Source of the DNA: a virus | Reading direction: 5' to 3' (one strand) | DNA: 64,000 bases | IMG/VR virus record: IMGVR_UViG_3300042731_009106 | Coordinates: 64,001 to 128,000 of that record | Shown here: positions 21,916 through 62,910 of the stretch, piece by piece | Layout of the letters: the number at the start of each line of letters is the position of its first letter | Numbering within the stretch: the first letter of the stretch is position 1 | Translations under genes and position numbers: made by a program | The notes under the pieces: model-generated | The model's database searches: none | Told to the model about the DNA's origin: nothing | The model's input: the letters and a program-made list of their open reading frames with translations, nothing else

Positions 21916-24309
21916 ATGCAAGCCAACTTCACTCCTAGATGTCAAGAAATTTTAGCTTTAGCTAAAAAGCTAGCCGAAAAGTTCAACAACCCAGAAGTTA
22001 CCGTTGAGCATGTCTTTCTTTCTTTTTTAAAGATTGACTCTTTTTTATTTCCACGTATAGAGCAAGAGATACAAATTGATCTTGAAGCTTTAGTTCAGTC
22101 CGTCGTCGAATCTCTCGCCAACAAATCCCAAGAAAATATAGAAAAAGTTAGCTTCGGTGAAGATGTAAAGCAATGCCTAGACTTAGCCTACCAAACATCT
22201 AACTCCAAAAGCCATACTTACATTAGTGTCGAGCACTTGTTTTTTGCATTACTAAATGAGCCAAACTCTAATATTATAGATTATTTCATTGCGCATGACA
22301 TAGATATTTTAAAGGTAGATGATTTCTTACAAGATTACTTAGAGAACAGTCAGTCAAGAGACAATATAACATTTACTTATAGTAATGAAAATCCTATGTC
22401 AGCTTTTGGATCGCAGTCTCAAGGTATAGAGGCTTATAGTGTTGACTTAAATAAGTTAGCTAAAGAAGGTGAATTCAACTTTATATCCGCAAACATGGAT
22501 TATGTCCATGCTTTAGAAGAAACCTTATGCCGTAAAACAAAATCATGCGCCTTACTTATTGGTGATCCGGGTATTGGTAAAACTGCCATTGTGGAATACT
22601 TGGCAAAAAGAATTACAAGTATGACCACCAATGACTATTTATCTAATAAAAAAATTCTAGCGGTAGACCTTCCCTCTATGGTTGCTGGAACAAAATATAG
22701 AGGTCAATTTGAAGAAAGATTAAAAACTTTTATAGATGCAGTAAAACAAGAAAAAAACATTATTCTTTTTATAGATGAAATACATACTATAGTTGGTGCT
22801 GGTAATTCTGAGGGAGCTTTAGATGCGGCTAACATCCTAAAACCTTATATTGCACGTGGAGAATTAACTTGCATCGGGGCAACAACTTATGAAGAATACA
22901 AAAAGTCTTTTGCCAAAGACCCTGCTCTTAGACGTAGGTTTAATAATATAAAAATTTCAGAACCTTCAGAAGGAGAAGCTTTAGTTATCTTAAAAAACTT
23001 AGCGCCAAGTTATGAAGCTTTTCATGGTGTCACCTATTCTGAAGATAGCTTAAATCAAGCCATTGTTTTATCTAAAAAATTTATTATAGATAGAAAGTTG
23101 CCTGATAAAGCTATTGATTTATTAGATCAAGCTGGCTCAAAATTAAAGATCAGTCATTTTCAAAAGCCTAAAATGGCAAAGCAAATGGAAAAAGTTTTAA
23201 TTGCTGAAGATGTAGAAACTTCAATAAAAGAGAACGTATTCAAAACATACAAAGAAACTTTAGATAAATGGCAAAAAAGAAAACTATCTAAAATGCCGAC
23301 AGTTCAATCAAATCATATTAATGAAATTATATCTGATATGTTTGACATCCCTATTGAATCCCTAAAAGAGACTAAGTCTCAAAAATTAATACAGCTTGAA
23401 CCCAGAATTCAAAAAGATGTTATTGGTCAAGATAGAGCCATCTCTAGATTAGTTAACAGTTTATTTAAAACTCATGCAGGCCTACAAGATCCTAATAGAC
23501 CTATTGGTAGTTTTTTGTTTTTAGGTAAAACTGGCACAGGTAAAACTCTTACTTCTAAATCTTTAGCTAAACATTATTTCGGTTCAGATAAAAAATTAAT
23601 TTATTTTGACATGAGTGAGTTTAGTGAATCTACATCTGTTAGTAAATTTTCTGGTTCTTCACCCGGTTACGTTGGCTACGAAAAAGGCGGCATACTAACC
23701 GAGAAAGTTAAAAGAGATCCACATTGTGTTCTACTTTTTGATGAGATTGAAAAAGCTCACCCAATAGTACTACAGTCCTTACTTCAAATATTAGAAGAAG
23801 GCAGAATGACAGACAATTCTGGAGAAGAAACATCTTTTAAAAATACTATTATTATTTTAACAAGTAATCTTGGAGCAGAACTAGTAGACAAAAATCCATC
23901 TGTAGGATTCATGAGGCAACAAGAGTCTAATTATGACAAGATTTTTGACGAGGCTAAACGTAGATTAAGTCCTGAACTAGTTAATAGATTTGATGGTATT
24001 ATATTATTCAATAACTTTAGTGATGAAAGTCTATCTCAAATCATTAATATTGAATTAAATAAAGTTAAAAATAAATTAAAATCAAAAGGAATTAAAATAA
24101 CTTTCAAACCGAAAGTTAAGAAACGTATTCTAGATCAAACTATAGCTGAAAAACTTGGTGGCAGACCTATTCGCAGAATTATTCAAAATGATATTGAAGT
24201 TGAGCTTGCTAAATTTATTATAATGAATAACCCAGAAAGTGTAAATATTGATTACATAGACGATCAATTTACCTGCCATGTACCACGCAAGACATCCAAG
24301 AAGACCTAG
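21916..24309 (+). CDS. clpC: ClpC/ClpA-type AAA+ unfoldase
   Basis: Two Clp_N repeats, GDPGIGKT, FIDEIH, GKTGTGKT, PPG-like SPGYVGY, FDEIEKAHP, VGF ClpP-docking loop. Confidence 0.9.
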   Translation: MQANFTPRCQEILALAKKLAEKFNNPEVTVEHVFLSFLKIDSFLFPRIEQEIQIDLEALVQSVVESLANKSQENIEKVSFGEDVKQCLDLAYQTSNSKSHTYISVEHLFFALLNEPNSNIIDYFIAHDIDILKVDDFLQDYLENSQSRDNITFTYSNENPMSAFGSQSQGIEAYSVDLNKLAKEGEFNFISANMDYVHALEETLCRKTKSCALLIGDPGIGKTAIVEYLAKRITSMTTNDYLSNKKILAVDLPSMVAGTKYRGQFEERLKTFIDAVKQEKNIILFIDEIHTIVGAGNSEGALDAANILKPYIARGELTCIGATTYEEYKKSFAKDPALRRRFNNIKISEPSEGEALVILKNLAPSYEAFHGVTYSEDSLNQAIVLSKKFIIDRKLPDKAIDLLDQAGSKLKISHFQKPKMAKQMEKVLIAEDVETSIKENVFKTYKETLDKWQKRKLSKMPTVQSNHINEIISDMFDIPIESLKETKSQKLIQLEPRIQKDVIGQDRAISRLVNSLFKTHAGLQDPNRPIGSFLFLGKTGTGKTLTSKSLAKHYFGSDKKLIYFDMSEFSESTSVSKFSGSSPGYVGYEKGGILTEKVKRDPHCVLLFDEIEKAHPIVLQSLLQILEEGRMTDNSGEETSFKNTIIILTSNLGAELVDKNPSVGFMRQQESNYDKIFDEAKRRLSPELVNRFDGIILFNNFSDESLSQIINIELNKVKNKLKSKGIKITFKPKVKKRILDQTIAEKLGGRPIRRIIQNDIEVELAKFIIMNNPESVNIDYIDDQFTCHVPRKTSKKT

Positions 24310-25612
24310 TGTAAAATACGGAAACGAATTTCTGTATTCTAGTTTTGATGCAACAGGTTACCACTTTAATAATGAAGTGGCAATAGATAGTGGTTGCGCT
24401 CTAAGGAACATCCCTTGGACAGATTGTTCTGGCAACTTAGTTCGGCAAATACATAGAATTCAATCTGCTACATACGGTTTTACTGTCAGCAAAAAAGATG
24501 TAAACCAATTTGGTAAAATGGCTAGAGTAGATTCTGTAGCTATTGATACACCTACTGTAACAATGGATTTTGAATATTTTCTAGCTGATGGATTCAATGA
24601 GCAAGTAATGGGTTTCATTGTTGATGGAGAACATCAAGCTTTATACAACCATATAGCTATGAACAATAGAGTTGGTTGTAATATTTTTGTTGCAACTATG
24701 CCAGAAGGCCATGAAGTTGTCGGCGCGAACCTTAAGAACACATCTCAAGTCAAACAGATTAGATCTTCATATGAAGGAGCCAAGGATACTGCTAGAGTAG
24801 TAGGCATAGGTAATGCCTTCTTAAATCAATATGCAGTAACTGTAGAAGTGGGTAATATCCCAAAGGCTAGAATGAGCTTTGACGCATATAATATGCGATC
24901 TTATGAAGGTTTTTGCGATCTCCCTATACCAGCAATCAACCCTAAAGCTGCTTGCATTAAAGACAACGTTCACTTTAGTTTGCCAGACACTTATGAATCA
25001 TTTGTATATGAACAATTGGCGGGTCAAGACGAAATTGTATATCAAGATGGAGCTGGAGCATTGAAGCCGGGAAATATACGTTTAACTCTAGGTGATGCAG
25101 CTATTATGAGCCAATTAGGTAGTGACCTAGCCTCCTTCCACAGAGGGGCGGCACATATACAAGGTTTTACAATAAATGTTCCTTTAGGTAATACCCGCTT
25201 AAATAGAATAGGTAGTTATTATGAATTTGCTAGATCTATAGATTTTCCAAGTCTCATTGAAGTTGAAGTTCAAGCCATCATTAGCGAACTCAAAGATGAT
25301 AGTTCAGTAAAGGAGTTGTTTTATTGTCCAACAGAAAGACATGACCTCGTTCTATTACTTGAAGACTGTCAAGGTATACAAGAATGCGACTATAGATTGC
25401 TTCCAGTTAGTACCAACATGGCTTTTTATATTAAAGGAGCGATGATTCAAGAAGAGTCAATAACTTCTAATATTACCGATAATAAAGTAGTGAGCCTTAA
25501 ATTTACAGCTCCTTTAGGAGGTTTGGACGACAAAGGTAATGGCTTATTTATTTTTGGCAAAAGTTATTTCCCTGATAAACCTAAAATTCTAGCTTGGGGT
25601 CAACCTTTGTAA
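24278..25612 (+). CDS. Hypothetical protein, possibly virion structural (tail-tube-like)
   Basis: 444 aa, beta-rich character; HRIQSATYGF-DVNQFG-PTV segment recalls phage structural proteins (weak, from memory). Confidence 0.4.
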   Translation: MYHARHPRRPSVKYGNEFLYSSFDATGYHFNNEVAIDSGCALRNIPWTDCSGNLVRQIHRIQSATYGFTVSKKDVNQFGKMARVDSVAIDTPTVTMDFEYFLADGFNEQVMGFIVDGEHQALYNHIAMNNRVGCNIFVATMPEGHEVVGANLKNTSQVKQIRSSYEGAKDTARVVGIGNAFLNQYAVTVEVGNIPKARMSFDAYNMRSYEGFCDLPIPAINPKAACIKDNVHFSLPDTYESFVYEQLAGQDEIVYQDGAGALKPGNIRLTLGDAAIMSQLGSDLASFHRGAAHIQGFTINVPLGNTRLNRIGSYYEFARSIDFPSLIEVEVQAIISELKDDSSVKELFYCPTERHDLVLLLEDCQGIQECDYRLLPVSTNMAFYIKGAMIQEESITSNITDNKVVSLKFTAPLGGLDDKGNGLFIFGKSYFPDKPKILAWGQPL

Positions 25613-25620
25613 TTTTTTTC

Positions 25621-25649
25621 TTTACATCCATTCACTTTTGTTGTAATAT
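25621..25649 (+). promoter_or_regulatory. Sigma70-like promoter for tmRNA
   Basis: TTTACA-17-TAATAT 26 nt upstream of tmRNA 5' end. Confidence 0.55.
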
Positions 25650-25674
25650 ATATAAGTTCTTTGATAAATTTTAT

Positions 25675-26038
25675 GGGCGTGTACTGGATTCGATTTAAAT
25701 TGAATGGGTATACTGCAAGTAGGAGTTGCATCTGGCTCCTAAAAAAGGTGCAAAAATCTACATGGCAATAAGTCACGTGTTAAAGCTTTCGCCTTCAAAA
25801 AGCGCGAGCTTGCTTTAGCAGCATAAGTCTGCTACCTCATAACCTTTGACGCAGATAAAGGGATTATGGGGTCATTAATCTGCAAAACAGATAAAAGTTT
25901 ATCCATATCATAAACTGTAAATAATTGAAATGGTTAGTTGGATGTTTATATCATAACTATAAAAAAAATAAACTAAACTTGTAGATGTATATTACGGAAG
26001 ATTTAAAGACGCGGGTTCAACTCCCGCCACGTCCACCA
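25675..26038 (+). ncRNA. ssrA: tmRNA (364 nt)
   Basis: Acceptor stem GGGCGTG/CACGTCC-ACCA with G3.U70, 5' TGGATTCGA loop, T-arm GCGGG-TTCAACT-CCCGC, tag ORF 25764..25826 ending LALAA-TAA. Confidence 0.95.
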
Positions 26039-26053
26039 TTTTTAAAATAAAAC

Positions 26054-26082
26054 TTGACTATATGCAAAATATATGTCATACT
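26054..26082 (+). promoter_or_regulatory. Sigma70-like promoter
   Basis: TTGACT-17-CATACT; implies the start of the next gene is ATG 26091, not 26073. Confidence 0.65.
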
Positions 26083-26090
26083 TAACAATT

Positions 26091-26627
26091 ATGAATCTTT
26101 TATACAAAACAAAAACCTATCTAGTTGGCCACATGCAATATGTTAGTGGTAGAAATTGGCGTGAAGATGTCACTCAAAAGCTAGAACCTTTAAACATTAC
26201 ATGTTTTGATCCATATAAAAAACCATTTATGAAAGACGTAGAGGAAGATGAAGCGTCTCGACAAGAAATGGAAACTTGGATGAAAACAAAACAATATGAT
26301 CGAGTAACTGAGCGCATGAAAACTGTTCGCGCATATGATTTAAATTTAGTTGATCGCTCTGACTTCATCATAGCTCATCTTGTTCCTGATGTAGCATCTT
26401 GGGGTAGTGCAGAAGAAATTGTTACAGCCGTACGTGAAAAGAAACCTGTGTTTGTTAGCATGGAAGGCGGAAAAGCTAAAACTCCTCTATGGATGCTTGG
26501 CATGTTTCCTCATAAATATATTTATAATTCTCTTGACGAAATTATTGAGATGTTGTATGCTATAGATAGTGGCGACAAACCAATAGATTCTGATCGCTGG
26601 AGATTGTTACAAAAAAAATTCAGATAA
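26091..26627 (+). CDS. Nucleoside 2-deoxyribosyltransferase-like / nucleotide N-glycosidase
   Basis: TYLVGHM, WREDV, FDPY, DLNLVDRSDFIIA, GSAEE. Confidence 0.75.
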   Translation: MNLLYKTKTYLVGHMQYVSGRNWREDVTQKLEPLNITCFDPYKKPFMKDVEEDEASRQEMETWMKTKQYDRVTERMKTVRAYDLNLVDRSDFIIAHLVPDVASWGSAEEIVTAVREKKPVFVSMEGGKAKTPLWMLGMFPHKYIYNSLDEIIEMLYAIDSGDKPIDSDRWRLLQKKFR

Positions 26628-26655
26628 ACTAGAAAAACTAAAATTAAAAATTATT

Positions 26656-26727
26656 ATGATTACATTTACATTATATTCAATCGGAGCATTCTGCGTATAC
26701 TTATATTTAGGAACTAAACAAAAATAA
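26656..26727 (+). CDS. Tiny membrane peptide (23 aa)
   Basis: MITFTLYSIGAFCVYLYLGTKQK; stop is 1 nt from next ATG. Confidence 0.5.
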   Translation: MITFTLYSIGAFCVYLYLGTKQK

Positions 26728-26728
26728 A

Positions 26729-27022
26729 ATGACAACTCAATCTAATATTCCACCTCACATATCTGGTTTATTTTACCAACTTCTTGGAGAACGTAATACC
26801 AAAGTCGCAGACTTTAAGCTTTTAACCTTAAAAGGTTGTGATGATGTCATGTCAACTTCAATTCGACTAAAGGAAACCTTGCAAGACATTGCAAACATAG
26901 AAATTCAATTAGAAGCTTTGGTGGAATTCTATCCAGATCTTAATGAAAAAGGGGATCAATCAACTCCAAGCTCAGTAAATCCGGATGACAATCCAATTGG
27001 AGCTGACTCACAAATGCTTTAA
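26729..27022 (+). CDS. Hypothetical protein
   Basis: 97 aa ORF. Confidence 0.65.
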   Translation: MTTQSNIPPHISGLFYQLLGERNTKVADFKLLTLKGCDDVMSTSIRLKETLQDIANIEIQLEALVEFYPDLNEKGDQSTPSSVNPDDNPIGADSQML

Positions 27023-27310
27023 TTTATTAATTAAATCTCCGTAATTATATTCGTTTATATATTGAAAACCAATTCTCTTTTTTGGTCCAACACTGACTCC
27101 TTCTTGCCTTTCTCCCTCTAGGATTAATTCTTGAACAAAGTCGTGAGCGCCATAATTTTTAATCCACTGCCAATATAAACTACGAGTTCCCTGTTTACAT
27201 CTTATTATATTTTCTGCTTCAAGAAAAACTTGAGCATACAAAGTTACATCTCTAAAACAATGTACTGAGCTAGGTGGTTCAGTCAACACCGAATCATAAA
27301 TTATAACCAT
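27008..27310 (-). CDS. Hypothetical protein
   Basis: 100 aa ORF preceded by GTGTA motif. Confidence 0.7.
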   Translation of the reverse strand: MVIIYDSVLTEPPSSVHCFRDVTLYAQVFLEAENIIRCKQGTRSLYWQWIKNYGAHDFVQELILEGERQEGVSVGPKKRIGFQYINEYNYGDLINKLKHL

Positions 27311-27318
27311 AAATTATT

Positions 27319-27324
27319 ATACAC
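27319..27324 (-). promoter_or_regulatory. GTGTAW phage motif
   Basis: TACAC at 27320..27324, 9 nt from ATG 27310. Confidence 0.65.
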
Positions 27325-27327
27325 ATT

Positions 27328-27606
27328 ATGTTAGAAGACAATCAAAAAGAAAAAGTTAACTCTTGGAAAGAACGTGAATTAGGAGCCTTCTGGACTCAGG
27401 ATAGCAAAAAAGGTAAGTATTTATCTGGCTCGGTTGACTTGGCCAAGCTTACAGGTGATGGCAAAATGCGCGTGGTCATGTTTCCAAATAGCAACAAAGA
27501 AAATGACAATCAGCCTGACTATATTTTATATGTTTCAAAGGATGCTCAGCCTCAAGCTAGCAATGGTGAAACAAAAAAAGCAGAAATTCCAGAAACTTTA
27601 GTGTAA
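27328..27606 (+). CDS. DUF736-like putative ssDNA-binding protein
   Basis: ELGAFW-KGKYLSG-VMFPN-NQPDY. Confidence 0.6.
   Translation: MLEDNQKEKVNSWKERELGAFWTQDSKKGKYLSGSVDLAKLTGDGKMRVVMFPNSNKENDNQPDYILYVSKDAQPQASNGETKKAEIPETLV
27601..27606 (+). promoter_or_regulatory. GTGTAW phage motif
   Basis: GTGTA ends 13 nt before ATG 27619; doubles as upstream stop (GTG TAA). Confidence 0.55.
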
Positions 27607-27618
27607 TTTAATGCACAA

Positions 27619-28731
27619 ATGAATGTTCAATACGGATTAATTAGTACCTCAGAACTCCTTAAAGAGAGGGATCCAGATAGTTCTTATACCTTTTCAGGTA
27701 TAACTGTCAGAAATTTTAACGCCGCCAAAGAAAGCTCAGGAATCGAAGGAGCTTTATCTGAACTCTCTAATCGTATTCATCATAATTTGCGATTAACCGA
27801 AAATATCATTGAGTTCTTACCGAAAGTTAAAATCACTCATTACCGTATTAGTAATTCTTTGTTCAGTATACTTTCAGATTTCTCGGATGGTGTTGCTGTT
27901 ACAATTCAGGATCTCCCTGACTCTCAAGAAATTATTGCTAAAATACGAGAAATAGGATTTCTTGCTAGACAAAACAATATCACATTATCTGTCTATCCAG
28001 ATTCAACTACTAGTTTGACAAGCACTGACGAGCAAGCTATCGACAGAGCTGTTAAAGAACTTAATTTTCATAGCTGGTTTCTTGATACTGCTGGATTTCC
28101 CTCAAATCCATCTAGCCCAATTATCATAAAGCCTTTTGCGCAACCTAGCTCTAGTAGTCATGAAGCAGCAGTTGAGTTTGTAAAAAGTTTTTACGAAAGC
28201 TATAAAAAACTTGATAGAGAAACTCAAAGTAGAATAGTAATACAGAATGAAGATGAAGGTTTTTGGAATGCGATTAATTTATTTAAATATTTTCATGTTT
28301 ATTTAAACGAAAAATTCAAAGAAGGCATGGTATTAAGTTACCACAACTATGCCGATCAAATGAATCCGGGCATGTTGGGTTCTGATGCCGTTTCGATTGA
28401 TGTTAATGTTGGAGCTTTTCATGAAACTTGGAAAGGTGTTGTGCCGATTTTCTTATGGTCAGAAAAAGATCGTGGGAATCCACAAGTTTCATCAGAATAT
28501 CTATCTGAACCAATTCCAGATTTTAATTATCAAATTAAATGGGAATGCGATGTGAGAAAAAGGGATAAGGCTATTGTTAAATTTACAATGCCTGAGGACG
28601 AAGATAAAGTTACTGAAGAAGTCATAATGACTATAACTAAAAATAAATACAAAAGGTCTAGCGACGCATCAAAAGCCTTTAATGCACTATATGACAAATC
28701 CTCCAATGCCCAATCGCCAAACCAAATATAA
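27619..28731 (+). CDS. UvsE/UVDE-fold protein, catalytic residues degenerate
   Basis: HYRISNSLF, ITLSVYPD, RAVKELNFHSWFLD, RIVIQNED follow the UvsE layout. Confidence 0.65.
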   Translation: MNVQYGLISTSELLKERDPDSSYTFSGITVRNFNAAKESSGIEGALSELSNRIHHNLRLTENIIEFLPKVKITHYRISNSLFSILSDFSDGVAVTIQDLPDSQEIIAKIREIGFLARQNNITLSVYPDSTTSLTSTDEQAIDRAVKELNFHSWFLDTAGFPSNPSSPIIIKPFAQPSSSSHEAAVEFVKSFYESYKKLDRETQSRIVIQNEDEGFWNAINLFKYFHVYLNEKFKEGMVLSYHNYADQMNPGMLGSDAVSIDVNVGAFHETWKGVVPIFLWSEKDRGNPQVSSEYLSEPIPDFNYQIKWECDVRKRDKAIVKFTMPEDEDKVTEEVIMTITKNKYKRSSDASKAFNALYDKSSNAQSPNQI

Positions 28732-53252: not shown

Positions 53253-53443
53253 TATTAATAGAAGACGCAAACGAAGAAAAATATCACATCAACCCCAAGC
53301 AAGTGATATATGTAAAAGAACGCCAACACATGGGAAAAATTATGTGGAAGATAATGATGGCTAATGGAGAAGCCTTAATGACTGAAAATGAGCAAGGAGC
53401 AAAGTGCATTATAGCTTCAATCAAAAGCAAAAAGAATGCCTAG
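53249..53443 (+). CDS. Small FlbD-like/hypothetical protein
   Basis: INPKQVIYV short beta-rich ORF. Confidence 0.55.
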   Translation: MILIEDANEEKYHINPKQVIYVKERQHMGKIMWKIMMANGEALMTENEQGAKCIIASIKSKKNA

Positions 53444-54014
53444 AAAATTAAATAACAGAAGGGTCAAAGAAGACATTCTTCGATTACATTCAGAAGGTAA
53501 AACTTATTCTCAAATACAAAAAGAATTAAAATGTTCTAAGTCGGTTATCAGCTATCACTGCGGTAGTGGTACAGAAAAGGCTAGAGTAAAAGCTTCCGTT
53601 AAAAATCGTCCAGCAATCTGCAAAAAGGTTTCTGGGTTTAAAACTAGATGCTCTAGAGCTAACTATAAACTTTTTCAAGCAAAGTTGAAAACTTTTAAAA
53701 GAAAAAATTCTTCAAGTGGAAATCACACAAATACTATAGTCAACAGCATAAGCAAGAACTATACATGCAAGGATGTGATTGATAAATTTGGAGATAAACC
53801 TACATGCTACCTAACAGGAAAGCCAATCGACTTAAATGATTCATCTTCTTATAATTTAGACCATATTGTACCCACCTCAAAAGGGGGCACAAATGATCTA
53901 AGTAACTTGCAAATTTGCTTAACTGAAGCGAATACCGCCAAAGGCAATCTTTTACTTCCTGAGCTTTTAAATTTATGCAAGGCTATATTGAAACATCATA
54001 ATGTTTCTATTTAG
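53436..54014 (+). CDS. HNH endonuclease with N-terminal HTH
   Basis: CYLTG, LDHIVPTSKGGTNDLSNLQICLTEANTAKG; N-terminal GKTYSQIQKELKCSKSVISYH. Confidence 0.88.
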   Translation: MPRKLNNRRVKEDILRLHSEGKTYSQIQKELKCSKSVISYHCGSGTEKARVKASVKNRPAICKKVSGFKTRCSRANYKLFQAKLKTFKRKNSSSGNHTNTIVNSISKNYTCKDVIDKFGDKPTCYLTGKPIDLNDSSSYNLDHIVPTSKGGTNDLSNLQICLTEANTAKGNLLLPELLNLCKAILKHHNVSI

Positions 54015-54186
54015 ATTTTATTTTTTTTAATATTTTTCTTTTTTCTTGATCACTCATTTTTAAGTATTGGGACAAAGCTATACTTCTTATTAGGAAGTAG
54101 CGCTTCGTTGGGTTCCCATTAACTTCATATCCAACTAATGTATTAGTTAGTTGTGACGATAAGTATTGAATTATTTGATCTTTCAT
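54007..54186 (-). CDS. Small hypothetical protein (59 aa)
   Basis: MKDQIIQYLSSQL...KILKKIKSK; below ORF cutoff. Confidence 0.45.
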   Translation of the reverse strand: MKDQIIQYLSSQLTNTLVGYEVNGNPTKRYFLIRSIALSQYLKMSDQEKRKILKKIKSK

Positions 54187-54208
54187 TGTATTATAAATTG
54201 ATTAATTT

Positions 54209-54284
54209 GCCACCTTAGCACAGTTGGTAGTGCGACGCACTTGTAATGCGTAGGTCGTCAGTTCGATCCTGACAGGTGGCTCCA
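54209..54284 (+). tRNA. trnT: tRNA-Thr(UGU)
   Basis: Acceptor GCCACCT/AGGTGGC, anticodon arm ACGCA-CTTGTAA-TGCGT, GTTCGATC T-loop, encoded CCA; TTGAAT-17-TATTAT upstream (54166..54194). Confidence 0.97.
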
Positions 54285-54290
54285 TCTATT

Positions 54291-54722
54291 ATGCATAAAC
54301 ATCACATTATACCAAAACACATGGGCGGATCAGATGATCCCGACAACTTGACATATCTTTCTGTCAAAGAGCATGCTATCGCTCATGCAGAACTCTATAA
54401 AAAATATGGAAAACATGAAGATTATGTAGCTTTCAAAGCCCTTAAAAAACACATAGACAAAGAAGATTTATATAAAGAAACTTCAGCTATGGGTGGATTA
54501 AATAATACTGGAAAACCTAAATCTATTGATCATAGAAATAATATTGCAAAAGCTAACAAAGATAATCCCAAATTAAAAATACCACTAACAGAAGATCGTA
54601 AAAATAAAATTTCAAAATCAATGAAAGGTAACAGCAACTCATCCAATCATTCTTCTCCTGAATATAAGAAAAAACAAAGTGAGGCAATGAAAAAAGCTTG
54701 GGCAAAACGAAAGCTTAAATGA
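54291..54722 (+). mobile_element. Free-standing HNH homing endonuclease with NUMOD3-like repeats
   Basis: HKHHIIPKHMGGSDDPDNL-EHAIAH; HRNNIAK, RKNKISKSMKG, KKKQSEAMKK; start ATG 54291. Confidence 0.85.
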
Positions 54723-56837: not shown

Positions 56838-56839
56838 TT

Positions 56840-57139: not shown

Positions 57140-57511
57140 CTAGCAATTCATTGTAACTTCGCCATTATCGTCATCCCAACTTCCATTAAGAAACTTTTCA
57201 GCAGTTTTGTATTCATCTGAATCTGAGTTTAAGCTATCTTTGTAATCTTGTATTTGACCTCTAATCCCGGCAGAATAAGGAGTTGGGCCTAAGTTATCAA
57301 AACAAGACCCTTTATCTAACTTTTCTACAGGAACAATTAGCGGGCAATTTGGGTCATTTAAAAAGTTTTCTAAATGTCTATGAAATGCATTAGCTGCATT
57401 AAAACCTTCAGCTTCTAAAGCTGCTCTGGTTGCACTACTAATTTGAGGCGGACATGAGGCAAAATCGTCCTTATACCTTTCACGTTGAGCATTGTTTTGT
57501 ATCGTTGTCAT
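57140..57511 (-). CDS. Orphan hypothetical protein
   Basis: 123 aa with own GTGTA motif and terminator. Confidence 0.7.
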   Translation of the reverse strand: MTTIQNNAQRERYKDDFASCPPQISSATRAALEAEGFNAANAFHRHLENFLNDPNCPLIVPVEKLDKGSCFDNLGPTPYSAGIRGQIQDYKDSLNSDSDEYKTAEKFLNGSWDDDNGEVTMNC

Positions 57512-57519
57512 ATTTATTT

Positions 57520-57525
57520 ATACAC
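57520..57525 (-). promoter_or_regulatory. GTGTAW phage motif
   Basis: TACAC at 57521..57525, 9 nt from ATG 57511. Confidence 0.65.
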
Positions 57526-57539
57526 AAGTTTATTATATT

Positions 57540-57545
57540 GTGTAA
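57540..57545 (+). promoter_or_regulatory. GTGTAW phage motif
   Basis: GTGTA ends 10 nt before ATG 57555; back-to-back with the minus copy. Confidence 0.65.
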
Positions 57546-57554
57546 TTCATCTTC

Positions 57555-57749
57555 ATGAATGAAAAACAATTACAACTTGCATTAATTAAAAAAGATAGGC
57601 AAATTTCCGACTTATATGCATTAATTGACACCCTGCAAACCAACTTGAGAACGGCTACCAGCTATTTGTCTGAAAAAGATAAATCTGAAGTAGTTAATGT
57701 TCAAAGTTATAAATGGTGCATGAATTGGCGTCAAGGTGACGAAATTTAG
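57555..57749 (+). CDS. Small coiled-coil protein
   Basis: 64 aa ORF. Confidence 0.65.
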   Translation: MNEKQLQLALIKKDRQISDLYALIDTLQTNLRTATSYLSEKDKSEVVNVQSYKWCMNWRQGDEI

Positions 57750-57751
57750 TC

Positions 57752-57780
57752 TTGAATAATTCATTTTTTTAAGTTATAAT
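57752..57780 (+). promoter_or_regulatory. Sigma70-like promoter
   Basis: TTGAAT-17-TATAAT; ATG 57788. Confidence 0.7.
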
Positions 57781-57787
57781 ATAGGTT

Positions 57788-58333
57788 ATGTACAATTACC
57801 TAATTGACCATAATAAAGAGTTCATTTATTACGTCACCCCAAAATGCGCTTCAAGGACATTTTTTGACATCCTTAATTTTAAAGGTGGTGAAGAAAGACC
57901 TCTTAGCCTCAAACATGAAGAGTATTTTTCTTGGACTTTTGTGCGCAATCCTTATGCTAGAGTTGTATCTGCATATCAAAATAAAGTTGTCGATAAATTT
58001 CAAAGTGGTTTAGATGAATTTAGGCACTTAACTTCTTTTGAAGATTTTGTTCAAGCGATAAGTAAAATTGATATAAATAAAGCTGATCGACACATTCGAC
58101 CAATGAACACTTTTTTTCCAGAGTCCATTAGTTATGTAGGTAAACTAGAAAACTTAAATTCTGACTTTGATTTTATTTGTGATAAAATTAATCTACCAAA
58201 AGTAAACTTACCTCATTTAAATAAAAGTTTAAGCAAAGACTACACAGAGTATTACAATACAGAAACTCAATCAATAGTCAACAAAATATATAGCAAAGAT
58301 TTAGATATTTTTAAATATTCTTACGGAGATTAG
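57788..58333 (+). CDS. Sulfotransferase family 2 protein
   Basis: VTPKCASRT, FVRNPYARVVSAY, DRHIRP. Confidence 0.85.
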   Translation: MYNYLIDHNKEFIYYVTPKCASRTFFDILNFKGGEERPLSLKHEEYFSWTFVRNPYARVVSAYQNKVVDKFQSGLDEFRHLTSFEDFVQAISKIDINKADRHIRPMNTFFPESISYVGKLENLNSDFDFICDKINLPKVNLPHLNKSLSKDYTEYYNTETQSIVNKIYSKDLDIFKYSYGD

Positions 58334-58338
58334 ATTTT

Positions 58339-59094
58339 ATGGGTAAAGGTATCTCAATAGCTTTCATTACTTCAGTATTTGGATACAATGGCAATGACCC
58401 TAAAAAATTTGAAAAAATTAAAGGGGCTCAATATTTTTTATTTACAGATAGGCCTGAATCTAGCTTCGATACTGATTGGGAAATCATTAATGTTGCAGGT
58501 ATCCTAGATATTGCTAATTTAGATTGCAATGTAAAAAAATCTAGATATTGCAAATTTATGGGCTGGAGTGTGCTAGAGGCAATGGGTGGCGTTTTTGATT
58601 ATGTTTATTATTGCGATGTTCATTTAAGCCCAAATCATCATTTAAATTGGCCAGAGCTTTCCAAATACATATCTCATCATGATTTTCCCTTTACTCAAGA
58701 TGTCCATATTGATCCCGAAATAAGAAAAAAAGGAATCAAACAAGAACTTAAAGCAATAATCAAACATGAACGAGATACTGTAGAGCAAGTTGACAAAACA
58801 ACACGATATCTTGAAAAATGGTTTCCAGATGTAGACTTAGATTCTCCTAAGTTTTTTCAAAATACTGTTTTTGGCTACGAATATCAATCCAAATTAGTAA
58901 GGCTTATTTTTGCAACATTTTGGGGACATTACTCAAGAAATGACATTACCTTCAGAGATCAACCATTATGGAATGCTATTTTAAAGAAATATAAACTAAT
59001 ACCCTTTCACAAAGTCAAACTCCTAAATCGTTTTTTTGTTAAAACAGGCCTTTATGGTAAACATGGCTTAAGAGGTTTTGACGATGAAGATTAG
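58339..59094 (+). CDS. DUF616-like putative glycosyltransferase
   Basis: YFLFTD, SRYCKF, RDQPLWN. Confidence 0.55.
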   Translation: MGKGISIAFITSVFGYNGNDPKKFEKIKGAQYFLFTDRPESSFDTDWEIINVAGILDIANLDCNVKKSRYCKFMGWSVLEAMGGVFDYVYYCDVHLSPNHHLNWPELSKYISHHDFPFTQDVHIDPEIRKKGIKQELKAIIKHERDTVEQVDKTTRYLEKWFPDVDLDSPKFFQNTVFGYEYQSKLVRLIFATFWGHYSRNDITFRDQPLWNAILKKYKLIPFHKVKLLNRFFVKTGLYGKHGLRGFDDED

Positions 59095-59113
59095 TAATTT
59101 AACATAAAAAGTA

Positions 59114-60019
59114 ATGTACATAATATTAGGAAAAAACGGATATATAGCAGAAGCTATAACAAAAGAATTAAAGTCACGCGATTTACCTCATATCGCGCTT
59201 AGTCGCACAGATGTAGATTATACAAATATGAAAATTTTTGATAATTGGCTATCAAATACTGTATACAAAAAAACAGTGAAACATCATAATGTTTCTATCA
59301 TTAATTGCGCGGGATATATCGGTAAACCAAATGTGGATGCTTGCGAGCTAAATAAAGCAGATACAGTTGAAGGTAATGTAATATTCCCTGCAATGCTTTC
59401 GCAACTTTGTGCAAATAAAGGATATTTATATACTCATATTTCTTCGGGATGTATTTATGGCGGGTATGAAAAAGATTTCACAGAAGAAGATGCGCCTAAT
59501 TTTGACTTTCAAAATGGTAGTTTTTATAGTGGGACAAAAGCTCTTGCAGAAAAAATTGTAAAACAAAATGTACCAAAGAGTTATATTTTTAGATTACGCA
59601 TACCATTTGATGAATTTGAGTCTCCACGTAATTACTTGACTAAATTATTATCTTATGACATGCTTCTAGATGCGCGTAACTCTCTTTCTCATCGTGCAGA
59701 TTTCGCAAAATACACAATTGACTTAATCGAGAAAAAAGTTCCATTTGGGATTTACAATGTGACAAATAAAGGTAGTGTTACTACCAAAGAAGTTGTAGAA
59801 CTCATGAAATGCCATTTGCGCGACAACTTAGCTTTCAAAATGCCAGATAAAGAGTTTAAATTCTTCAGTAAGTTAGATAATTTCATGCAAGAGGTTACTG
59901 CTCCTCGCTCGAATTGTGTTCTTGACACATCAAAAATTGAAAAATATATTCCCATCAGAACTGCACAAGATGCACTCAAAGATGCTCTATCTAAATATGT
60001 AATTCAAAAAGATTTATGA
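59114..60019 (+). CDS. NDP-4-keto-6-deoxysugar 3,5-epimerase/4-reductase (RmlD-like, NRS/ER type)
   Basis: LGKNGYIA, CAGYIGKPNVDACE, SSGCIY, GSFYSGTK, LRIPF-PRNYLTKL. Confidence 0.85.
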   Translation: MYIILGKNGYIAEAITKELKSRDLPHIALSRTDVDYTNMKIFDNWLSNTVYKKTVKHHNVSIINCAGYIGKPNVDACELNKADTVEGNVIFPAMLSQLCANKGYLYTHISSGCIYGGYEKDFTEEDAPNFDFQNGSFYSGTKALAEKIVKQNVPKSYIFRLRIPFDEFESPRNYLTKLLSYDMLLDARNSLSHRADFAKYTIDLIEKKVPFGIYNVTNKGSVTTKEVVELMKCHLRDNLAFKMPDKEFKFFSKLDNFMQEVTAPRSNCVLDTSKIEKYIPIRTAQDALKDALSKYVIQKDL

Positions 60020-60801
60020 ATCCTTTGGATTTGCATAATCAAAATACAGGTAAAACTATCAACGAGCGGATACAATGGTCTATGGCTCATGCTAGACTAC
60101 CTTTAAAAAAGTACTGCACAGATAAAATCAAATGCAAGCAATATATTAAAGATAAATTAGGAGAAGGTTTTACGGCTAAACTTTTAGCTTCTGCAGATAA
60201 TGTTGATACTCTTCGGTCAATTATATCAAAATCCGAAAATCATCCTAATAATTTTATATTAAAAGCCAATAATGATTCAGGCGGAACTACTTTCATTAAA
60301 GATAAAAAAATCTCAAAAGATCAACAATCATTAATTGAGAAATATAAAAATAACATATATGAGGGGTTTTTTCAAGGTGAGTGGTTTTATTCAGGCATAG
60401 AATATAAATGTTTTTCTGAAGAATTATTGGGTAATAATTTAACTGACTACAAATTTCATTGCGCTGGAGGTTCACCAAGGTTTGCAAATATTGTCAAAGA
60501 TAGAAATATTAACTCTATAAATCACATTCATGTTGATATGGAAGGTCAAGCTTTAAACTTTGAATTAGAATCTTCAATCCCACTTTCCAAAACATTTATA
60601 AAGCCATCTAACTGGGAGTTAATGAAATTAGTTGCCAAGGTATTATGTCAAGATTTTGATTACGTTAGGGTTGATTTATTTAATACAGATTTACATGATT
60701 GTTCTGACAAATCAATTTTTGTATCCGAATTAACCTTTGCTCCAATGAGAGGACATCATTGCGGTTCTGGTCAAACAGAGGCTGGCAGATTAATTTCTTG
60801 A
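60016..60801 (+). CDS. TupA-like ATP-grasp protein
   Basis: CTDKI, FILKANNDSG, DYKFHC-G, FDYVRVDLF, SELTFAP. Confidence 0.85.
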   Translation: MNPLDLHNQNTGKTINERIQWSMAHARLPLKKYCTDKIKCKQYIKDKLGEGFTAKLLASADNVDTLRSIISKSENHPNNFILKANNDSGGTTFIKDKKISKDQQSLIEKYKNNIYEGFFQGEWFYSGIEYKCFSEELLGNNLTDYKFHCAGGSPRFANIVKDRNINSINHIHVDMEGQALNFELESSIPLSKTFIKPSNWELMKLVAKVLCQDFDYVRVDLFNTDLHDCSDKSIFVSELTFAPMRGHHCGSGQTEAGRLIS

Positions 60802-60944
60802 TGTGCAATATATATATTTTTTGCGAAGGAGGCTTGGGTAACAGAATTAATACCCTAATTAATGGCTTATTTTTATCTACAGAACTTAATAGAAAACTTA
60901 TTTTAATTTGGCCTCAAACTAATTGCAAAACTTTTAAAGTGTAA
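60801..60944 (+). pseudogene. N-terminal fragment of O-fucosyltransferase/GT23-like gene
   Basis: EGGLGNRINTLINGL-NRKLILIW, then stops after 47 codons at GTG-TAA. Confidence 0.6.
60939..60944 (+). promoter_or_regulatory. GTGTAW phage motif
   Basis: GTGTA ends 9 nt before GTG 60953. Confidence 0.6.
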
Positions 60945-60952
60945 TATAATGC

Positions 60953-61492
60953 GTGGAACTTTGCAATAATACACCAGCAATCAAATGTTTTTTAAGGAGA
61001 GAATTCGTCTCCAACTCTGAAGATATACCCGATCATTTAAATTGTGTAATTTTCGGCGTTCATACAATCAAAAATCAAGCTATGACATTTGTAGCTATGA
61101 TTGAAAATGGCGCAGTATATACCAAGCTACCCTTACATGCCTTTTGTTGGCTCAAGGAAGCTCCACAAAGAGATTTGTCATTCTTAATGACTTATGACTC
61201 ATTTAGCTACTCAAACAGCGTTATTGAATACGATTATCTCAAATATATGAATTGTAAGTTTTTTGATGAAAATAAAGAATTTCATCATGGTCAATATATG
61301 TTTACCCTAGAGCCTTATGGTTCAGATCGTGCAGAAGACCCAAAGTTTTATAAACCATTTCATTTTATAAAATTAAACGAGGGCAATTTTGCCGCACAAC
61401 CAACAAATAAGATCATATGGGATGACCATATAGTAAATGATAGTGTAAAATTTATACCTAAACCCAACACGGAAATATATAACGTAGAATAG
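60953..61492 (+). CDS. Conserved phage hypothetical protein
   Basis: CFLRREF, ENGAVY-KLPLHAF, GNFAAQPTNKIIW. Confidence 0.7.
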   Translation: MELCNNTPAIKCFLRREFVSNSEDIPDHLNCVIFGVHTIKNQAMTFVAMIENGAVYTKLPLHAFCWLKEAPQRDLSFLMTYDSFSYSNSVIEYDYLKYMNCKFFDENKEFHHGQYMFTLEPYGSDRAEDPKFYKPFHFIKLNEGNFAAQPTNKIIWDDHIVNDSVKFIPKPNTEIYNVE

Positions 61493-61509
61493 AAACTTAC
61501 AAATATTAA

Positions 61510-62103
61510 ATGAAAATTGCAACAATAGGCAGTTGTCAAGCAATGGCGCTAAATTGGTATGTACATAGATTGCTGCCAGATTCTGAATGTAAATGGGTAT
61601 CACCTGAATTATTTCAATTTTGGGGAAATAAGCCCCAATACACTTCAACAAAAAGTATGTGGCAATCTCAAGCAAATCATAATATTTTTAATACGGATGA
61701 AGGTATTGATTATATAAAATCAGCAGATTATATTGTTTATCAAAAAATAAAACCTTCAACATCTGCTTCATTCAACTATGAGAAAATTGAATCCTATACA
61801 AAACCTTCAGCTCAAGTAGTATCGTTAACATATATTCATTACGATAAAAGTGCAAGTGATCCACTACAAGGAATGGTCGAACGAGAAGAACTTCTTTCAC
61901 CTGATATTAGAATCAGTAAATTAATTTCAGAACACCCTGATCGTGAAAATTTTAAATTTAATGCGAAAGGCACACATTGCAATTCAGTTGTATTTCTTGA
62001 GATATTGAGGGAAATATGTGAAAATTTTAATTGGGCTTTTTTCAACGACGAGCAATATATTAAAATTCAGGAAAAATATTACCCTTTTGGGGAAAACCTA
62101 TGA
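61510..62103 (+). CDS. WcbI-like protein
   Basis: IATIGSCQAMAL-WY; paralog of 55680. Confidence 0.55.
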   Translation: MKIATIGSCQAMALNWYVHRLLPDSECKWVSPELFQFWGNKPQYTSTKSMWQSQANHNIFNTDEGIDYIKSADYIVYQKIKPSTSASFNYEKIESYTKPSAQVVSLTYIHYDKSASDPLQGMVEREELLSPDIRISKLISEHPDRENFKFNAKGTHCNSVVFLEILREICENFNWAFFNDEQYIKIQEKYYPFGENL

Positions 62104-62115
62104 CCAACACAAATC

Positions 62116-62910
62116 ATGCAAATATTCTACGACCACGTTATTTCTAAACAAGCTGACACAGACTTTAATTATACTCTTATTTCTGCTTGGGTTGATAGTG
62201 GTGAAGAGGATGAAGCTCTAGCTACGGGTTGGTTGCCTACATATTTCTATACCGATGATTGTGAATTTGCGAAAGAGAGTGAGTCAAATAAGCGTCAAAT
62301 TTGGTGTCAATTAAGAAGCACAAGAATCGAGTGTGAAAAGTTTCGTGCAAAAAGTAAACATTTAAAAGCATTAAAATTGCAAAACTTTAAGTATCAAATA
62401 ATAAAACAAAAAGACATTTATGGAGATTTGAATGTCTTATCTACCCTTTACCAAATATACAACAAATATGTAACTTACAAAAATTACAAAGACATACTAG
62501 ATAAAGATGGTTTTATTAAACATATAATTGATGATAGTAGTCATTTTATTTTATTTATGATTGACGATAGAATTGTAGCTTGTACCGCAATGCAACAATT
62601 TGGCAATAGTTTTGTTTCGGGCTTGTTTTTTTGGGATTACGCAAATAAAGAGCTATCATTAGGCAATTTATCTAATCATCTTGAAGTTGAACTTTCAAGA
62701 GAGTATGGTTTCAAATACCTATATATCGGTGTGTATAGCGAGATACCTTCCCAATACAAATCTTACATCAAAGGAGTACAGGTTTGGACAGGAAGAAAAT
62801 GGATGTCAAATAAACGACAATTAATAAATATTGCACAGAATGATTCAAATAGTAATACATTAGAAGATTTTGTAGATTATAATAAATTTCAAAAACTATT
62901 AGAATTTTAA
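62116..62910 (+). CDS. Bpt/ATE1-like aminoacyl-tRNA-protein transferase
   Basis: LATGW, RSTRI, LYQIYNKY, FFWDY-LSLG, KYLYIG-Y-SQYK-W follow the ATE_N/ATE_C layout. Confidence 0.75.
   Translation: MQIFYDHVISKQADTDFNYTLISAWVDSGEEDEALATGWLPTYFYTDDCEFAKESESNKRQIWCQLRSTRIECEKFRAKSKHLKALKLQNFKYQIIKQKDIYGDLNVLSTLYQIYNKYVTYKNYKDILDKDGFIKHIIDDSSHFILFMIDDRIVACTAMQQFGNSFVSGLFFWDYANKELSLGNLSNHLEVELSREYGFKYLYIGVYSEIPSQYKSYIKGVQVWTGRKWMSNKRQLINIAQNDSNSNTLEDFVDYNKFQKLLEF

What the first reader, a model, noticed from the sequence alone, without database searches (positions are those of the whole stretch)
21916..62910. Candidate phage-controlled protein-degradation toolkit: ClpC/A + tmRNA + Bpt-like N-degron transferase
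Seen: a two-AAA Clp ATPase with Clp_N repeats and a VGF loop (NPSVGFM) at 21916; a tmRNA one gene downstream (25675) whose tag ends LALAA; a Bpt/ATE1-like transferase at 62116. Known: the [IVL]GF loop docks ClpP; tmRNA tags and N-terminal Leu/Arg degrons (Bpt, ClpS) both route proteins to Clp proteases. Inference: the phage may supply both degron-writing routes (C-terminal and N-terminal) and its own unfoldase to redirect host ClpP toward host proteins or stalled products. No ClpP, ClpS or SmpB is in this window.
Basis: partly seen in the sequence, partly recalled or inferred. Interest (0 to 1): 0.8.

Follow-up and report, generated by a model that had tools for sequence, protein, structure and literature searches.

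The report
Phage ClpC–tmRNA pair plus unrelated transferase
An uncultured 139-kb marine phage carries a protein-unfolding motor built to plug into the host's ClpP protease and, two genes on, its own ribosome-rescue RNA that writes a long conserved tag. These two travel together in many related phages, whereas the third proposed part, an ATE/Bpt-like transferase, belongs to a separate mobile two-gene cassette.

Summary
All three features are real. The ClpC-type ATPase (21916-24309) aligns end to end with B. subtilis ClpC, and its VGF falls on the ClpP-docking VGF. The tmRNA (25675-26038, Rfam 133 bits) encodes GNKSRVKAFAFKKRELALAA. The 264-aa protein (62116-62910) has an ATE1 fold. The whole 139-kb genome (not a jumbo phage) lacks ClpP, ClpS and SmpB.

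The ClpC-tmRNA link is supported. Both occur in 5 of 5 close relatives. Of 39 further ClpC-bearing viral records, 17 hold a tmRNA, and in 9 it lies within 6 kb downstream on the same strand. VGF is kept in 6 of 6 full-length homologues. A sister family of one-ring Clps keeps IGF at the C-terminus in 116 of 120 clusters. Few relatives encode ClpP, so host ClpP is the likely partner.

The transferase link is not supported. The gene sits directly beside a 'cyanophage PurM-like' gene in most of 79 loci and in varied genomic contexts. Only 5 of 39 ClpC phages have it, never beside ClpC, and a 93%-complete relative lacks it. It also lacks the Bpt cysteine cluster and the basic pocket motif.

Whether ClpC reads the tag is untested. 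This scan noted similar ClpC-tmRNA blocks and a separate ATE cassette in other phage genomes.

The parts
19315..21897 (+). DNA polymerase III alpha. It serves as the upstream anchor of the conserved block.
   Evidence: Pfam DNA_pol3_alpha, finger and HHH_6 domains. 76-83% identical and collinear in G001-G004. A Pol III alpha gene also precedes the Clp gene in the L022 group.
21916..24309 (+). ClpC-type two-ring AAA+ unfoldase (P0001, 797 aa).
   Evidence: Domain matches. The best solved relative is B. subtilis ClpC at 571 bits, aligned end to end. Walker A/B motifs, the KYR and GYVG pore loops and the GRPIRR sensor can be read directly. PHROG 4871 'ATP-dependent protease'.
23902..23910 (+). 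VGF tripeptide (residues 663-665), the predicted ClpP-docking loop.
   Evidence: Aligns with the VGF of B. subtilis ClpC. Invariant V663 G664 F665 in six phage homologues.
24278..25612 (+). 444-aa protein (P0013) with a T5 pb6-like double tail-tube fold, lying between ClpC and the tmRNA. Its role in the block is unknown.
   Evidence: AF2 pLDDT 70, pTM 0.74. Foldseek matches the T5 tail tube 9iny at E 1.6e-12. 140 homologues. Syntenic in G001-G004.
25675..26038 (+). One-piece tmRNA.
   Evidence: Rfam 133.4 bits. G3.U pair and 3' CCA are present. 19 of 87 predicted pairs show compensatory changes across six phage tmRNAs.
25764..25826 (+). Tag reading frame GNKSRVKAFAFKKRELALAA plus stop codon.
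   Evidence: Variable sites by codon position are 4, 5 and 14.
26073..26627 (+). Nucleoside 2-deoxyribosyltransferase-like gene. It serves as the downstream anchor of the block.
   Evidence: Pfam match. 85-90% identical in relatives.
60953..61492 (+). phrog_3704 'cyanophage PurM/ferredoxin-like' protein (P0282). It is the conserved cassette partner of the ATE-like gene.
   Evidence: PHROG E 3e-35. Found in the same locus as the ATE-like gene in 72 of 79 loci and directly abutting it in most. 112 GenBank phages carry it without the ATE-like gene.
61510..62103 (+). 197-aa ORF of unknown family, inserted between the two cassette genes in this genome.
   Evidence: No Pfam, PHROG or NCBIfam match. 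Not homologous to the methyltransferase at the same place in G005.
62116..62910 (+). ATE1/Bpt-fold aminoacyl-tRNA-dependent transferase (P0002), without the Cys cluster.
   Evidence: ATE_C 38.6 bits. Foldseek matches ATE1 at E 8e-10. The family profile matches yeast Ate1 at E 2.4e-9. Aligned with bona fide Bpt.
62911..63504 (+). Sulfotransferase. It forms the local glycan context and abuts the ATE-like gene.
   Evidence: Pfam Sulfotransfer_2. The same neighbour is present in G005.

Best explanation
There are two separate things here, not one three-part kit.

(A) A conserved ClpC-tmRNA block sits just after the phage's Pol III alpha gene. The ClpC-type hexamer most likely docks through its VGF loops on the host's ClpP, because the phage encodes no ClpP. 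This would give the phage a protease whose substrate choice is set by a phage-encoded, fast-evolving unfoldase. The phage tmRNA would be charged by host AlaRS (G3.U pair) and delivered by host SmpB and EF-Tu. It rescues stalled ribosomes and adds a 20-residue basic tag whose ELALAA end looks like a cellular ssrA degron. Tagged chains are then degraded by Clp proteases: host ClpXP, the phage ClpC with host ClpP, or both.

(B) The ATE/Bpt-like protein is the enzyme of a mobile two-gene cassette (phrog_3704 'PurM-like' gene plus transferase) that is widespread in uncultured marine phages. It is an aminoacyl-tRNA-dependent transferase. Its donor pocket resembles the arginine-type pocket of ATE1. 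Its acceptor is unknown and is probably not an acidic protein N-terminus.

Shown here: gene identities, motif conservation, linkage statistics, and selection on the tag and on the tmRNA structure. Inferred: ClpP docking, use of host SmpB and AlaRS, the fate of tagged proteins, and the donor amino acid.
For: ClpC:
- It aligns end to end with B. subtilis ClpC, VGF on VGF.
- VGF is invariant in 6 of 6 full-length phage homologues.
- In the sister group the protein is reduced to the N-domain plus D1 yet still ends in IGF. Among 120 such clusters, 93 end exactly in IGF and 23 more have IGF within the last 5 residues.
- No ClpP is present in G000. A ClpP-family gene is present in only 4 of 37 ClpC-bearing records and in none of the three records that are at least 90% complete.

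tmRNA:
- Rfam 133 bits over the full model.
- 19 of 87 pairs are compensatory and G3.U is invariant.
- The tag frame is kept in relatives, with variable sites at codon positions 1, 2 and 3 numbering 4, 5 and 14.

Linkage:
- The order Pol III alpha - ClpC - tube-fold ORF - tmRNA - NDT is collinear in G001-G004.
- 17 of 39 more distant ClpC-bearing records (ClpC 36-52% identical) have a tmRNA. In 9 of these it lies 0.13-5.7 kb downstream on the same strand.
- For comparison, 2.3% of isolate phage genomes carry a tmRNA (PMC9004378).

Cassette:
- The partner gene lies in the same locus in 72 of 79 loci and abuts the ATE-like gene, with 0-4 nt of overlap, in most.
- The cassette sits between RNR subunit genes, near a terminase gene or near a capsid gene in other phages.
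- The ATE-like gene is present in 5 of 39 ClpC records, tens of kb from ClpC, and is absent from the 93%-complete G040.
- Two 84%-complete phages of about 50 kb have the cassette but neither Clp nor tmRNA.

Enzyme:
- pLDDT 94, with ATE1 as the top structural match, followed by MprF, FemX and L/F-transferase.
- The invariant K215 aligns with the catalytic Lys of the YK motif.
- S168, S186, E190 and L202 align with klAte1 S255, S273, E277 and Y289 (PMC9351520).
- The protein has GWLP where Bpt has GFRRSG, and it has no Cys cluster.
Against:
- In S. aureus, ClpC did not degrade GFP-SsrA even when activated (PMC12583610), so ClpC is not a known reader of ssrA tags.
- The ClpC-bearing phages may be one deep lineage, so the linkage counts are not independent events.
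- In nine relatives (the L022 group) the ATE-like gene lies one gene from the short Clp, and in G005 it lies 1.4 kb from the tmRNA. Some functional tie therefore cannot be excluded.
- The donor-pocket and acceptor-pocket mappings rest on sequence alignment to klAte1 and Bpt, not on a superposed structure. Placing klAte1 R80 in the GW/FRRSG motif is my inference.
- The host is unknown.
Confidence: 0.55

Rival explanations
1. The transferase writes N-degrons, the tmRNA writes C-degrons, and the phage ClpC feeds both classes of tagged protein to host ClpP as one coordinated system.
For: All three genes are present in G000 and G005. In nine relatives the ATE-like gene lies 0.3-1.5 kb downstream of a short Clp. 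The enzyme has an ATE1 fold and an intact catalytic Lys. 5 of 39 ClpC phages carry it, which is far above its overall frequency in IMG/VR.
Against: The cassette is found mostly without Clp or tmRNA and in unrelated contexts. It is absent from the 93%-complete G040. It is 36 kb from ClpC here. The GFRRSG basic motif and the Cys cluster are absent. No ClpS is encoded. An Arg-type donor pocket would not create a primary bacterial N-degron (established knowledge: ClpS reads Leu, Phe, Tyr and Trp). The proximity in the L022 group is a single lineage that shares Pol III alpha-Clp synteny.
Confidence: 0.12
2. The transferase works in the phage's sulfated-glycan pathway. It would add an amino acid from aminoacyl-tRNA to a sugar or glycan intermediate, in the way FemX and MprF act on non-protein acceptors.
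For: In G000 and G005 the gene abuts a sulfotransferase. It lies among RmlD-like, TupA-like ATP-grasp, methyltransferase and WcbI-like genes. The structural neighbours include MprF, FemX and Sbb17, which act on lipids, cell-wall precursors and small molecules. The acidic-N-terminus pocket motif is missing.
Against: In most other phages the same cassette sits in non-glycan contexts, namely between RNR subunit genes or near terminase or capsid genes. Its constant neighbour is the PurM-like gene, not a glycan enzyme.
Confidence: 0.13
3. The phage ClpC works without ClpP, as a chaperone, disaggregase or remodelling motor. One possible client is the neighbouring tube-fold protein or virion assembly. 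The tmRNA would then only keep ribosomes free during infection.
For: No ClpP in the phage. A tail-tube-fold gene sits between ClpC and the tmRNA and is syntenic in relatives. NCBIfam scores for ClpB, ClpA and ClpV are similar and all lie below their cut-offs.
Against: The VGF is invariant. Above all, the one-ring relatives keep a C-terminal IGF after losing the whole D2 ring, which is hard to explain other than by ClpP docking. The M-domain is short and ClpC-like, not the long ClpB type.
Confidence: 0.15

Closest known systems
ClpC-ClpP of Bacillus subtilis and Staphylococcus aureus (PDB 3j3s, 6em8), and ClpC1 of mycobacteria
   Same: N-domain with two Clp_N repeats, D1, a short M-domain, D2 with a VGF loop at the same aligned position, and a D2-small domain. 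The alignment runs end to end at 571 bits. Glu residues align with the pArg-site residues E32 and E106.
   Different: It is encoded by a phage that has no ClpP, MecA or McsB homologue identified. The M-domain is 14 residues shorter. It is at most 40% identical to any cellular ClpC found. It evolves faster than its flanking genes. Sister phages carry a one-ring form with a C-terminal IGF tail; I know of no described ClpP partner built that way.
Bacterial trans-translation (SsrA tmRNA with SmpB; tag degraded by ClpXP or ClpAP) and known phage tmRNAs (Melnitz and pelagiphages, PMC9004378; huge phages, PMC7162821)
   Same: One-piece tmRNA with a G3.U acceptor stem, pseudoknot-rich body and a tag ending LALAA. 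Phage-borne tmRNAs are already described, as is the idea that they tag proteins for degradation.
   Different: The tag is 20 residues long and strongly basic, conserved as GNKxRVKAxxFxxxxLALAA, compared with 9-10 residues in the Verrucomicrobiota tmRNAs read here. No SmpB is encoded. The tmRNA is recurrently placed just downstream of a phage ClpC.
Bpt (bacterial Leu-tRNA-protein transferase) and eukaryotic ATE1 (PDB 7wfx, 7tif, 8e3s, 8tzv)
   Same: Bpt-like size. GNAT core with the SLG and YLG...YK motifs, an invariant catalytic Lys, and the Arg of the R-I/V motif. ATE1 is the best structural match.
   Different: No C4 cysteine cluster. GWLP stands in place of GF/WRRSG. There are about 40 extra C-terminal residues. 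It scores far below the NCBIfam Bpt cut-offs (32 against 252 bits). It is nearly always paired with a phrog_3704 gene. It was found only in uncultured viral contigs, with no tblastn hit in 50,697 GenBank phage records.
FemX, MprF and L/F-transferase (Aat): other aminoacyl-tRNA transferases of the same fold
   Same: Shared fold, with Foldseek E-values of 1e-7 to 1e-6.
   Different: Weaker matches than ATE1, and no sequence-level family match.

Membership tests
ClpC (class I Clp/Hsp100 partner of ClpP) | Two AAA+ modules with Walker A/B motifs and pore loops | tested here: met
   Pfam AAA and AAA_2. GDPGIGKT and ILFIDEIH in D1, GKTGTGKT and LLFDEIEKAH in D2, plus KYR and GYVG pore loops, all read.
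ClpC (class I Clp/Hsp100 partner of ClpP) | Clp_N repeat N-domain | tested here: met
   Pfam Clp_N, 2 stretches. Aligned to the ClpC N-domain, including the E32 and E106 positions.
ClpC (class I Clp/Hsp100 partner of ClpP) | Short coiled-coil M-domain between D1 and D2 | tested here: met
   A linker of about 50 residues aligns with the B. subtilis M-domain with a 14-residue gap. It is not the long ClpB-type M-domain.
ClpC (class I Clp/Hsp100 partner of ClpP) | [IVL]GF ClpP-docking loop in D2 | tested here: met
   VGF aligns on VGF of B. subtilis ClpC. Invariant in 6 phage homologues.
ClpC (class I Clp/Hsp100 partner of ClpP) | Physical and functional coupling to ClpP | not testable with these tools
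tmRNA (Rfam RF00023) | Covariance-model score above the gathering threshold over the full length | tested here: met
   133.4 bits against 47, model positions 1-374.
tmRNA (Rfam RF00023) | tRNA-Ala-like domain with a G3.U pair and a 3' CCA | tested here: met
   The pair 3:449 is G.U in 6 of 6 sequences. Pair 4:448 is compensated, CG in 3 and GC in 3. The sequence ends in CCA.
tmRNA (Rfam RF00023) | Translated tag frame ending in a hydrophobic degron | tested here: met
   GNKSRVKAFAFKKRELALAA followed by a stop. The same frame is kept in four relatives, with a third-position excess of 14 against 4 and 5.
tmRNA (Rfam RF00023) | SmpB partner | tested here: not met
   No SmpB (PF01668) in the 139-kb genome. 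It would have to come from the host.
Bpt / ATE1 aminoacyl-tRNA-protein transferases | ATE_C GNAT core with a catalytic Lys | tested here: met
   PF04377 at 38.6 bits against a cut-off of 25. The family profile matches ScAte1 at E 2.4e-9, and the invariant K215 falls on the YK lysine.
Bpt / ATE1 aminoacyl-tRNA-protein transferases | ATE_N cysteine cluster (C4 zinc or Fe-S site) | tested here: not met
   There is no CxxC or CC motif. Aligned bona fide Bpt sequences have C.Y ... C..C..C where the phage family has none. The feature is defined in PMC9351520.
Bpt / ATE1 aminoacyl-tRNA-protein transferases | Basic pocket for an acidic N-terminal residue (GF/WRRSG motif, klAte1 R80) | tested here: not met
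   GWLP aligns with GFRRSG, and the family has no conserved basic residue there. Assigning R80 to this motif is my inference from the residue numbering in PMC9351520.
Bpt / ATE1 aminoacyl-tRNA-protein transferases | Curated equivalog score (NCBIfam arginyltransferase/Bpt models) | tested here: not met
   The best score is 32.4 bits against a cut-off of 252. True Bpt controls score 275-305 bits.
Bpt / ATE1 aminoacyl-tRNA-protein transferases | Transfers an amino acid to protein N-termini | not testable with these tools
   This needs an in vitro assay.
Bacterial Leu/N-degron pathway (Bpt or Aat, then ClpS, then ClpAP or ClpCP) | ClpS adaptor present | tested here: not met
   No ClpS (PF02617) in the phage genome. 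Host status is unknown.

The most novel reading that the evidence does not exclude
The phage runs a private degradation code. The conserved basic part of the tag written by its own tmRNA (GNKxRVKAxxF...) would be read by the fast-evolving phage ClpC, which hands tagged chains to the hijacked host ClpP. Tag and reader would then co-evolve: G005 has both a 41%-identical ClpC and a completely different, acidic tag ending in EMVA. The same ClpP-hijack logic would explain the one-ring phage Clps that keep only an N-domain, D1 and a C-terminal IGF tail, a docking architecture not described for any ClpP partner as far as I know.
Probability: 0.2. Interest if true: 0.8.

Novelty: new variant of a known kind. 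Interest (0 to 1): 0.58.

Why it matters
Phage tmRNAs and phage Clp ATPases are each known, but their purpose is unsettled. Here the two are linked across deeply diverged phages. The ClpP-docking tripeptide is the feature selection holds on to, even when half the motor is lost, and the phages usually bring no ClpP. This makes one question directly testable: do phages re-aim the host's ClpP by supplying their own unfoldase, and does a phage-written tag serve as its address label?

Separating the ATE-like gene from this block also defines a second target. It is a widespread tRNA-dependent transferase found so far only in viral contigs. It is nearly always paired with the long-enigmatic 'cyanophage PurM' gene, and studying the pair could finally give that gene a function.

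Tried and rejected
- ARAGORN on the window found only tRNA-Thr and missed the tmRNA. It also missed the tmRNA of G003.
- Host identification failed. The nearest cellular ClpC sequences are only 35-40% identical, with Verrucomicrobiota and other PVC phyla on top and Acidobacteriota and Bacillota close behind. The shared ELALAA tag end with two Verrucomicrobiota tmRNAs is only a hint.
- The fold and function of the PurM-like partner were not obtained. There was no Pfam match and no PDB profile match. Two Atlas look-ups were uninformative.
- The genome-contig scan with the ATE alignment failed for lack of a conserved stretch. Whether the cassette occurs in cellular genomes is therefore untested.
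- The promoter and terminator scan around the block found nothing above chance.
- Literature searches found no description of phage ATE/Bpt-like genes or of this trio.
- I considered a scheme in which arginylation followed by an APH-like kinase creates a pArg degron for the ClpC N-domain. I set it aside because the kinase occurs only in the L022 group, not in G000, and the E32 and E106 positions are only partly conserved.

Full report
**Where the window lies**

The window is bases 64,001-128,000 of a 139,273-bp IMG/VR virus record that CheckV rates 98% complete. It is a large phage, not a jumbo phage. Earlier notes of this scan describe it as an uncultured marine long-tailed phage rich in glycan genes. 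I did not rely on that description.

- The ORF at 21916-24309 encodes a 797-aa protein with Clp_N, AAA, AAA_lid_9, AAA_2 and D2-small domains.
- Its best solved relative is B. subtilis ClpC, aligned from residue 3 to 793 at 571 bits. The phage 'NPSVGF' lies exactly on the 'RNKYVGF' of ClpC.
- Walker motifs, pore loops and sensor residues are intact.
- Rfam places a full-length tmRNA at 25675-26038 with 133 bits against a threshold of 47. ARAGORN missed it.
- The tag frame reads GNKSRVKAFAFKKRELALAA.
- The 264-aa product of 62116-62910 passes the Pfam ATE_C threshold. It folds with pLDDT 94. Its nearest solved structures are human, yeast and K. lactis ATE1, followed by MprF, FemX and L/F-transferase.
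- ClpP, ClpS and SmpB are absent from the whole genome.

**ClpC and tmRNA belong together**

- Four related fragments (ClpC 61-66% identical) keep the order Pol III alpha - ClpC - 444-aa ORF - tmRNA - deoxyribosyltransferase.
- A fifth relative, G005, has both genes, with a 41%-identical ClpC.
- I then took 39 further viral records that encode ClpC relatives of 36-52% identity. Seventeen of them hold a tmRNA above the Rfam cut-off. In nine the tmRNA lies 0.13-5.7 kb downstream of clpC on the same strand (distances computed from the coordinates).
- For comparison, a survey found tmRNA in 2.3% of isolate phage genomes (PMC9004378).
- These phages may share ancestry, so the counts are not independent events. 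Even so, the linkage has survived very deep divergence.

**The tmRNA is under selection as a tmRNA**

- Across six phage copies, 19 of 87 predicted pairs show compensatory changes. The G3.U pair is invariant.
- In the four 20-codon tags, variable sites fall 4, 5 and 14 on codon positions 1, 2 and 3. ARAGORN calls the same frame in three relatives.
- The tag is long and basic, and it ends in ELALAA.
- Two Verrucomicrobiota tmRNAs read here encode ANSNELALAA and ANEELALAA.
- G005 has a wholly different acidic tag ending in EMVA.

**The ClpP-docking motif is what selection keeps**

- VGF is invariant in the six full-length proteins.
- In a sister group of phages the gene after Pol III alpha encodes only the N-domain, D1 and a linker, and it ends in IGF.
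- Of 120 such clusters in the protein database, 93 end exactly in IGF and 23 more have IGF within the last five residues. The remaining four end differently; three of them are shorter than the rest.
- A ClpP-family gene occurs in only 4 of 37 ClpC-bearing records. It is absent from all three records that are at least 90% complete.
- The simplest reading is that these motors dock on host ClpP.
- Whether the ClpC reads the phage tag is open. Activated S. aureus ClpC did not degrade GFP-SsrA (PMC12583610).

**The transferase is a separate matter**

- A profile of its family finds 184 representatives among 1.84 billion proteins and at least 565 IMG/VR contigs. It has no tblastn hit in 50,697 GenBank phage records.
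- In 72 of 79 loci a phrog_3704 gene lies in the same locus. In most it abuts the transferase gene with 0-4 nt of overlap. This is the gene long annotated as 'PurM' or 'ferredoxin' in cyanophages and pelagiphages, and 112 GenBank phages carry it alone.
- In G000 the partner is 60953-61492, with one unrelated ORF inserted between the two genes.
- The cassette sits between RNR subunit genes, near a terminase gene or near a capsid gene in other phages. The glycan context seen in G000 and G005 is therefore local.
- Of 29 longer records with the cassette, 9 have a Clp gene and 2 have a tmRNA above cut-off. All nine Clp cases are the short form and belong to the one lineage that shares Pol III alpha-Clp synteny.
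- Two 84%-complete genomes of about 50 kb have the cassette but neither Clp nor tmRNA.
- Conversely, only 5 of 39 ClpC records have the transferase, always tens of kb from clpC. The 93%-complete G040, which keeps the ClpC-tube-tmRNA synteny, lacks it.

**What the transferase looks like**

- I aligned it with bona fide Bpt sequences, verified by NCBIfam at 275-305 bits against a cut-off of 252. The phage family keeps the SLG and YLG...YK core and the R-I motif. It has GWLP where Bpt has GFRRSG, and it has none of the Bpt cysteines.
- Mapping onto K. lactis Ate1 (residues from PMC9351520) puts S168, S186, E190 and L202 at the donor-pocket positions S255, S273, E277 and Y289. Bpt has Ala, Ala, Gln and Leu there.
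- The retained Glu points to a basic donor such as Arg. Arg is not a primary N-degron for bacterial ClpS (established knowledge).
- Together these points lower the odds that the enzyme writes Bpt-style N-degrons. They do not exclude a protein acceptor.

**Verdict**

A phage unfoldase aimed at host ClpP and coupled to a phage tmRNA is well supported as a unit. The transferase is a passenger cassette of unknown acceptor.

This scan has noted ClpC-tmRNA blocks and a separate two-gene ATE cassette in other phage genomes. I reached the same split independently here.

Noticed in passing
L022, L024-L028, L031, L034, L037 (for example L034:1994-3490); proteins P0283-P0402: A large family of one-ring phage Clp proteins of about 456-503 aa (N-domain, D1 and a linker, no D2). 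93 of 120 clusters end exactly in IGF and 23 more have IGF within the last five residues. This looks like a ClpP-docking tripeptide moved to the C-terminal tail.
   Followed up: partly
window 24278-25612: A 444-aa protein with the double tail-tube fold of T5 pb6 sits between clpC and the tmRNA, far from the tail genes. It is syntenic in G001-G004 and in G040. It is the fastest-evolving gene of the block, at 40-56% identity against 76-90% for the flanking genes.
   Followed up: partly
L034:3751-5001 and homologues in 10 loci: An APH/EcKL-like kinase-fold gene lies between the short Clp and the ATE-like gene in the L022 group. It is absent from G000.
   Followed up: no
L038:819-5718: The PurM-like plus ATE-like cassette is inserted between the large and small subunit genes of ribonucleotide reductase.
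   Followed up: no
L007:599-997 (G004) and L010:1501-1911 (G005): The G004 tmRNA tag is 31 residues long through an internal duplication of the basic part and still ends in LALAA. The G005 tag is acidic, 21-34 residues long depending on the resume codon, and ends in EMVA.
   Followed up: partly
window 21916-25612 compared with 19315-21897 and 26073-26627: ClpC (61-66% identical) and the tube-fold ORF (40-56%) diverge much faster among relatives than the flanking Pol III alpha (76-83%) and deoxyribosyltransferase (85-90%).
   Followed up: no
window 53436-54722: Two HNH endonuclease ORFs, one with a NUMOD3 motif, flank the single tRNA-Thr(TGT) at 54209-54284.
   Followed up: no
window 18692-21897: The 860-aa Pol III alpha begins with the NTPase domain and has no PHP-domain Pfam match. 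A conserved 213-aa ORF overlaps its start and might carry the missing part.
   Followed up: no
window 60016-60801: A TupA-like ATP-grasp gene lies just upstream of the cassette, in the sulfotransferase and RmlD-like gene block.
   Followed up: no
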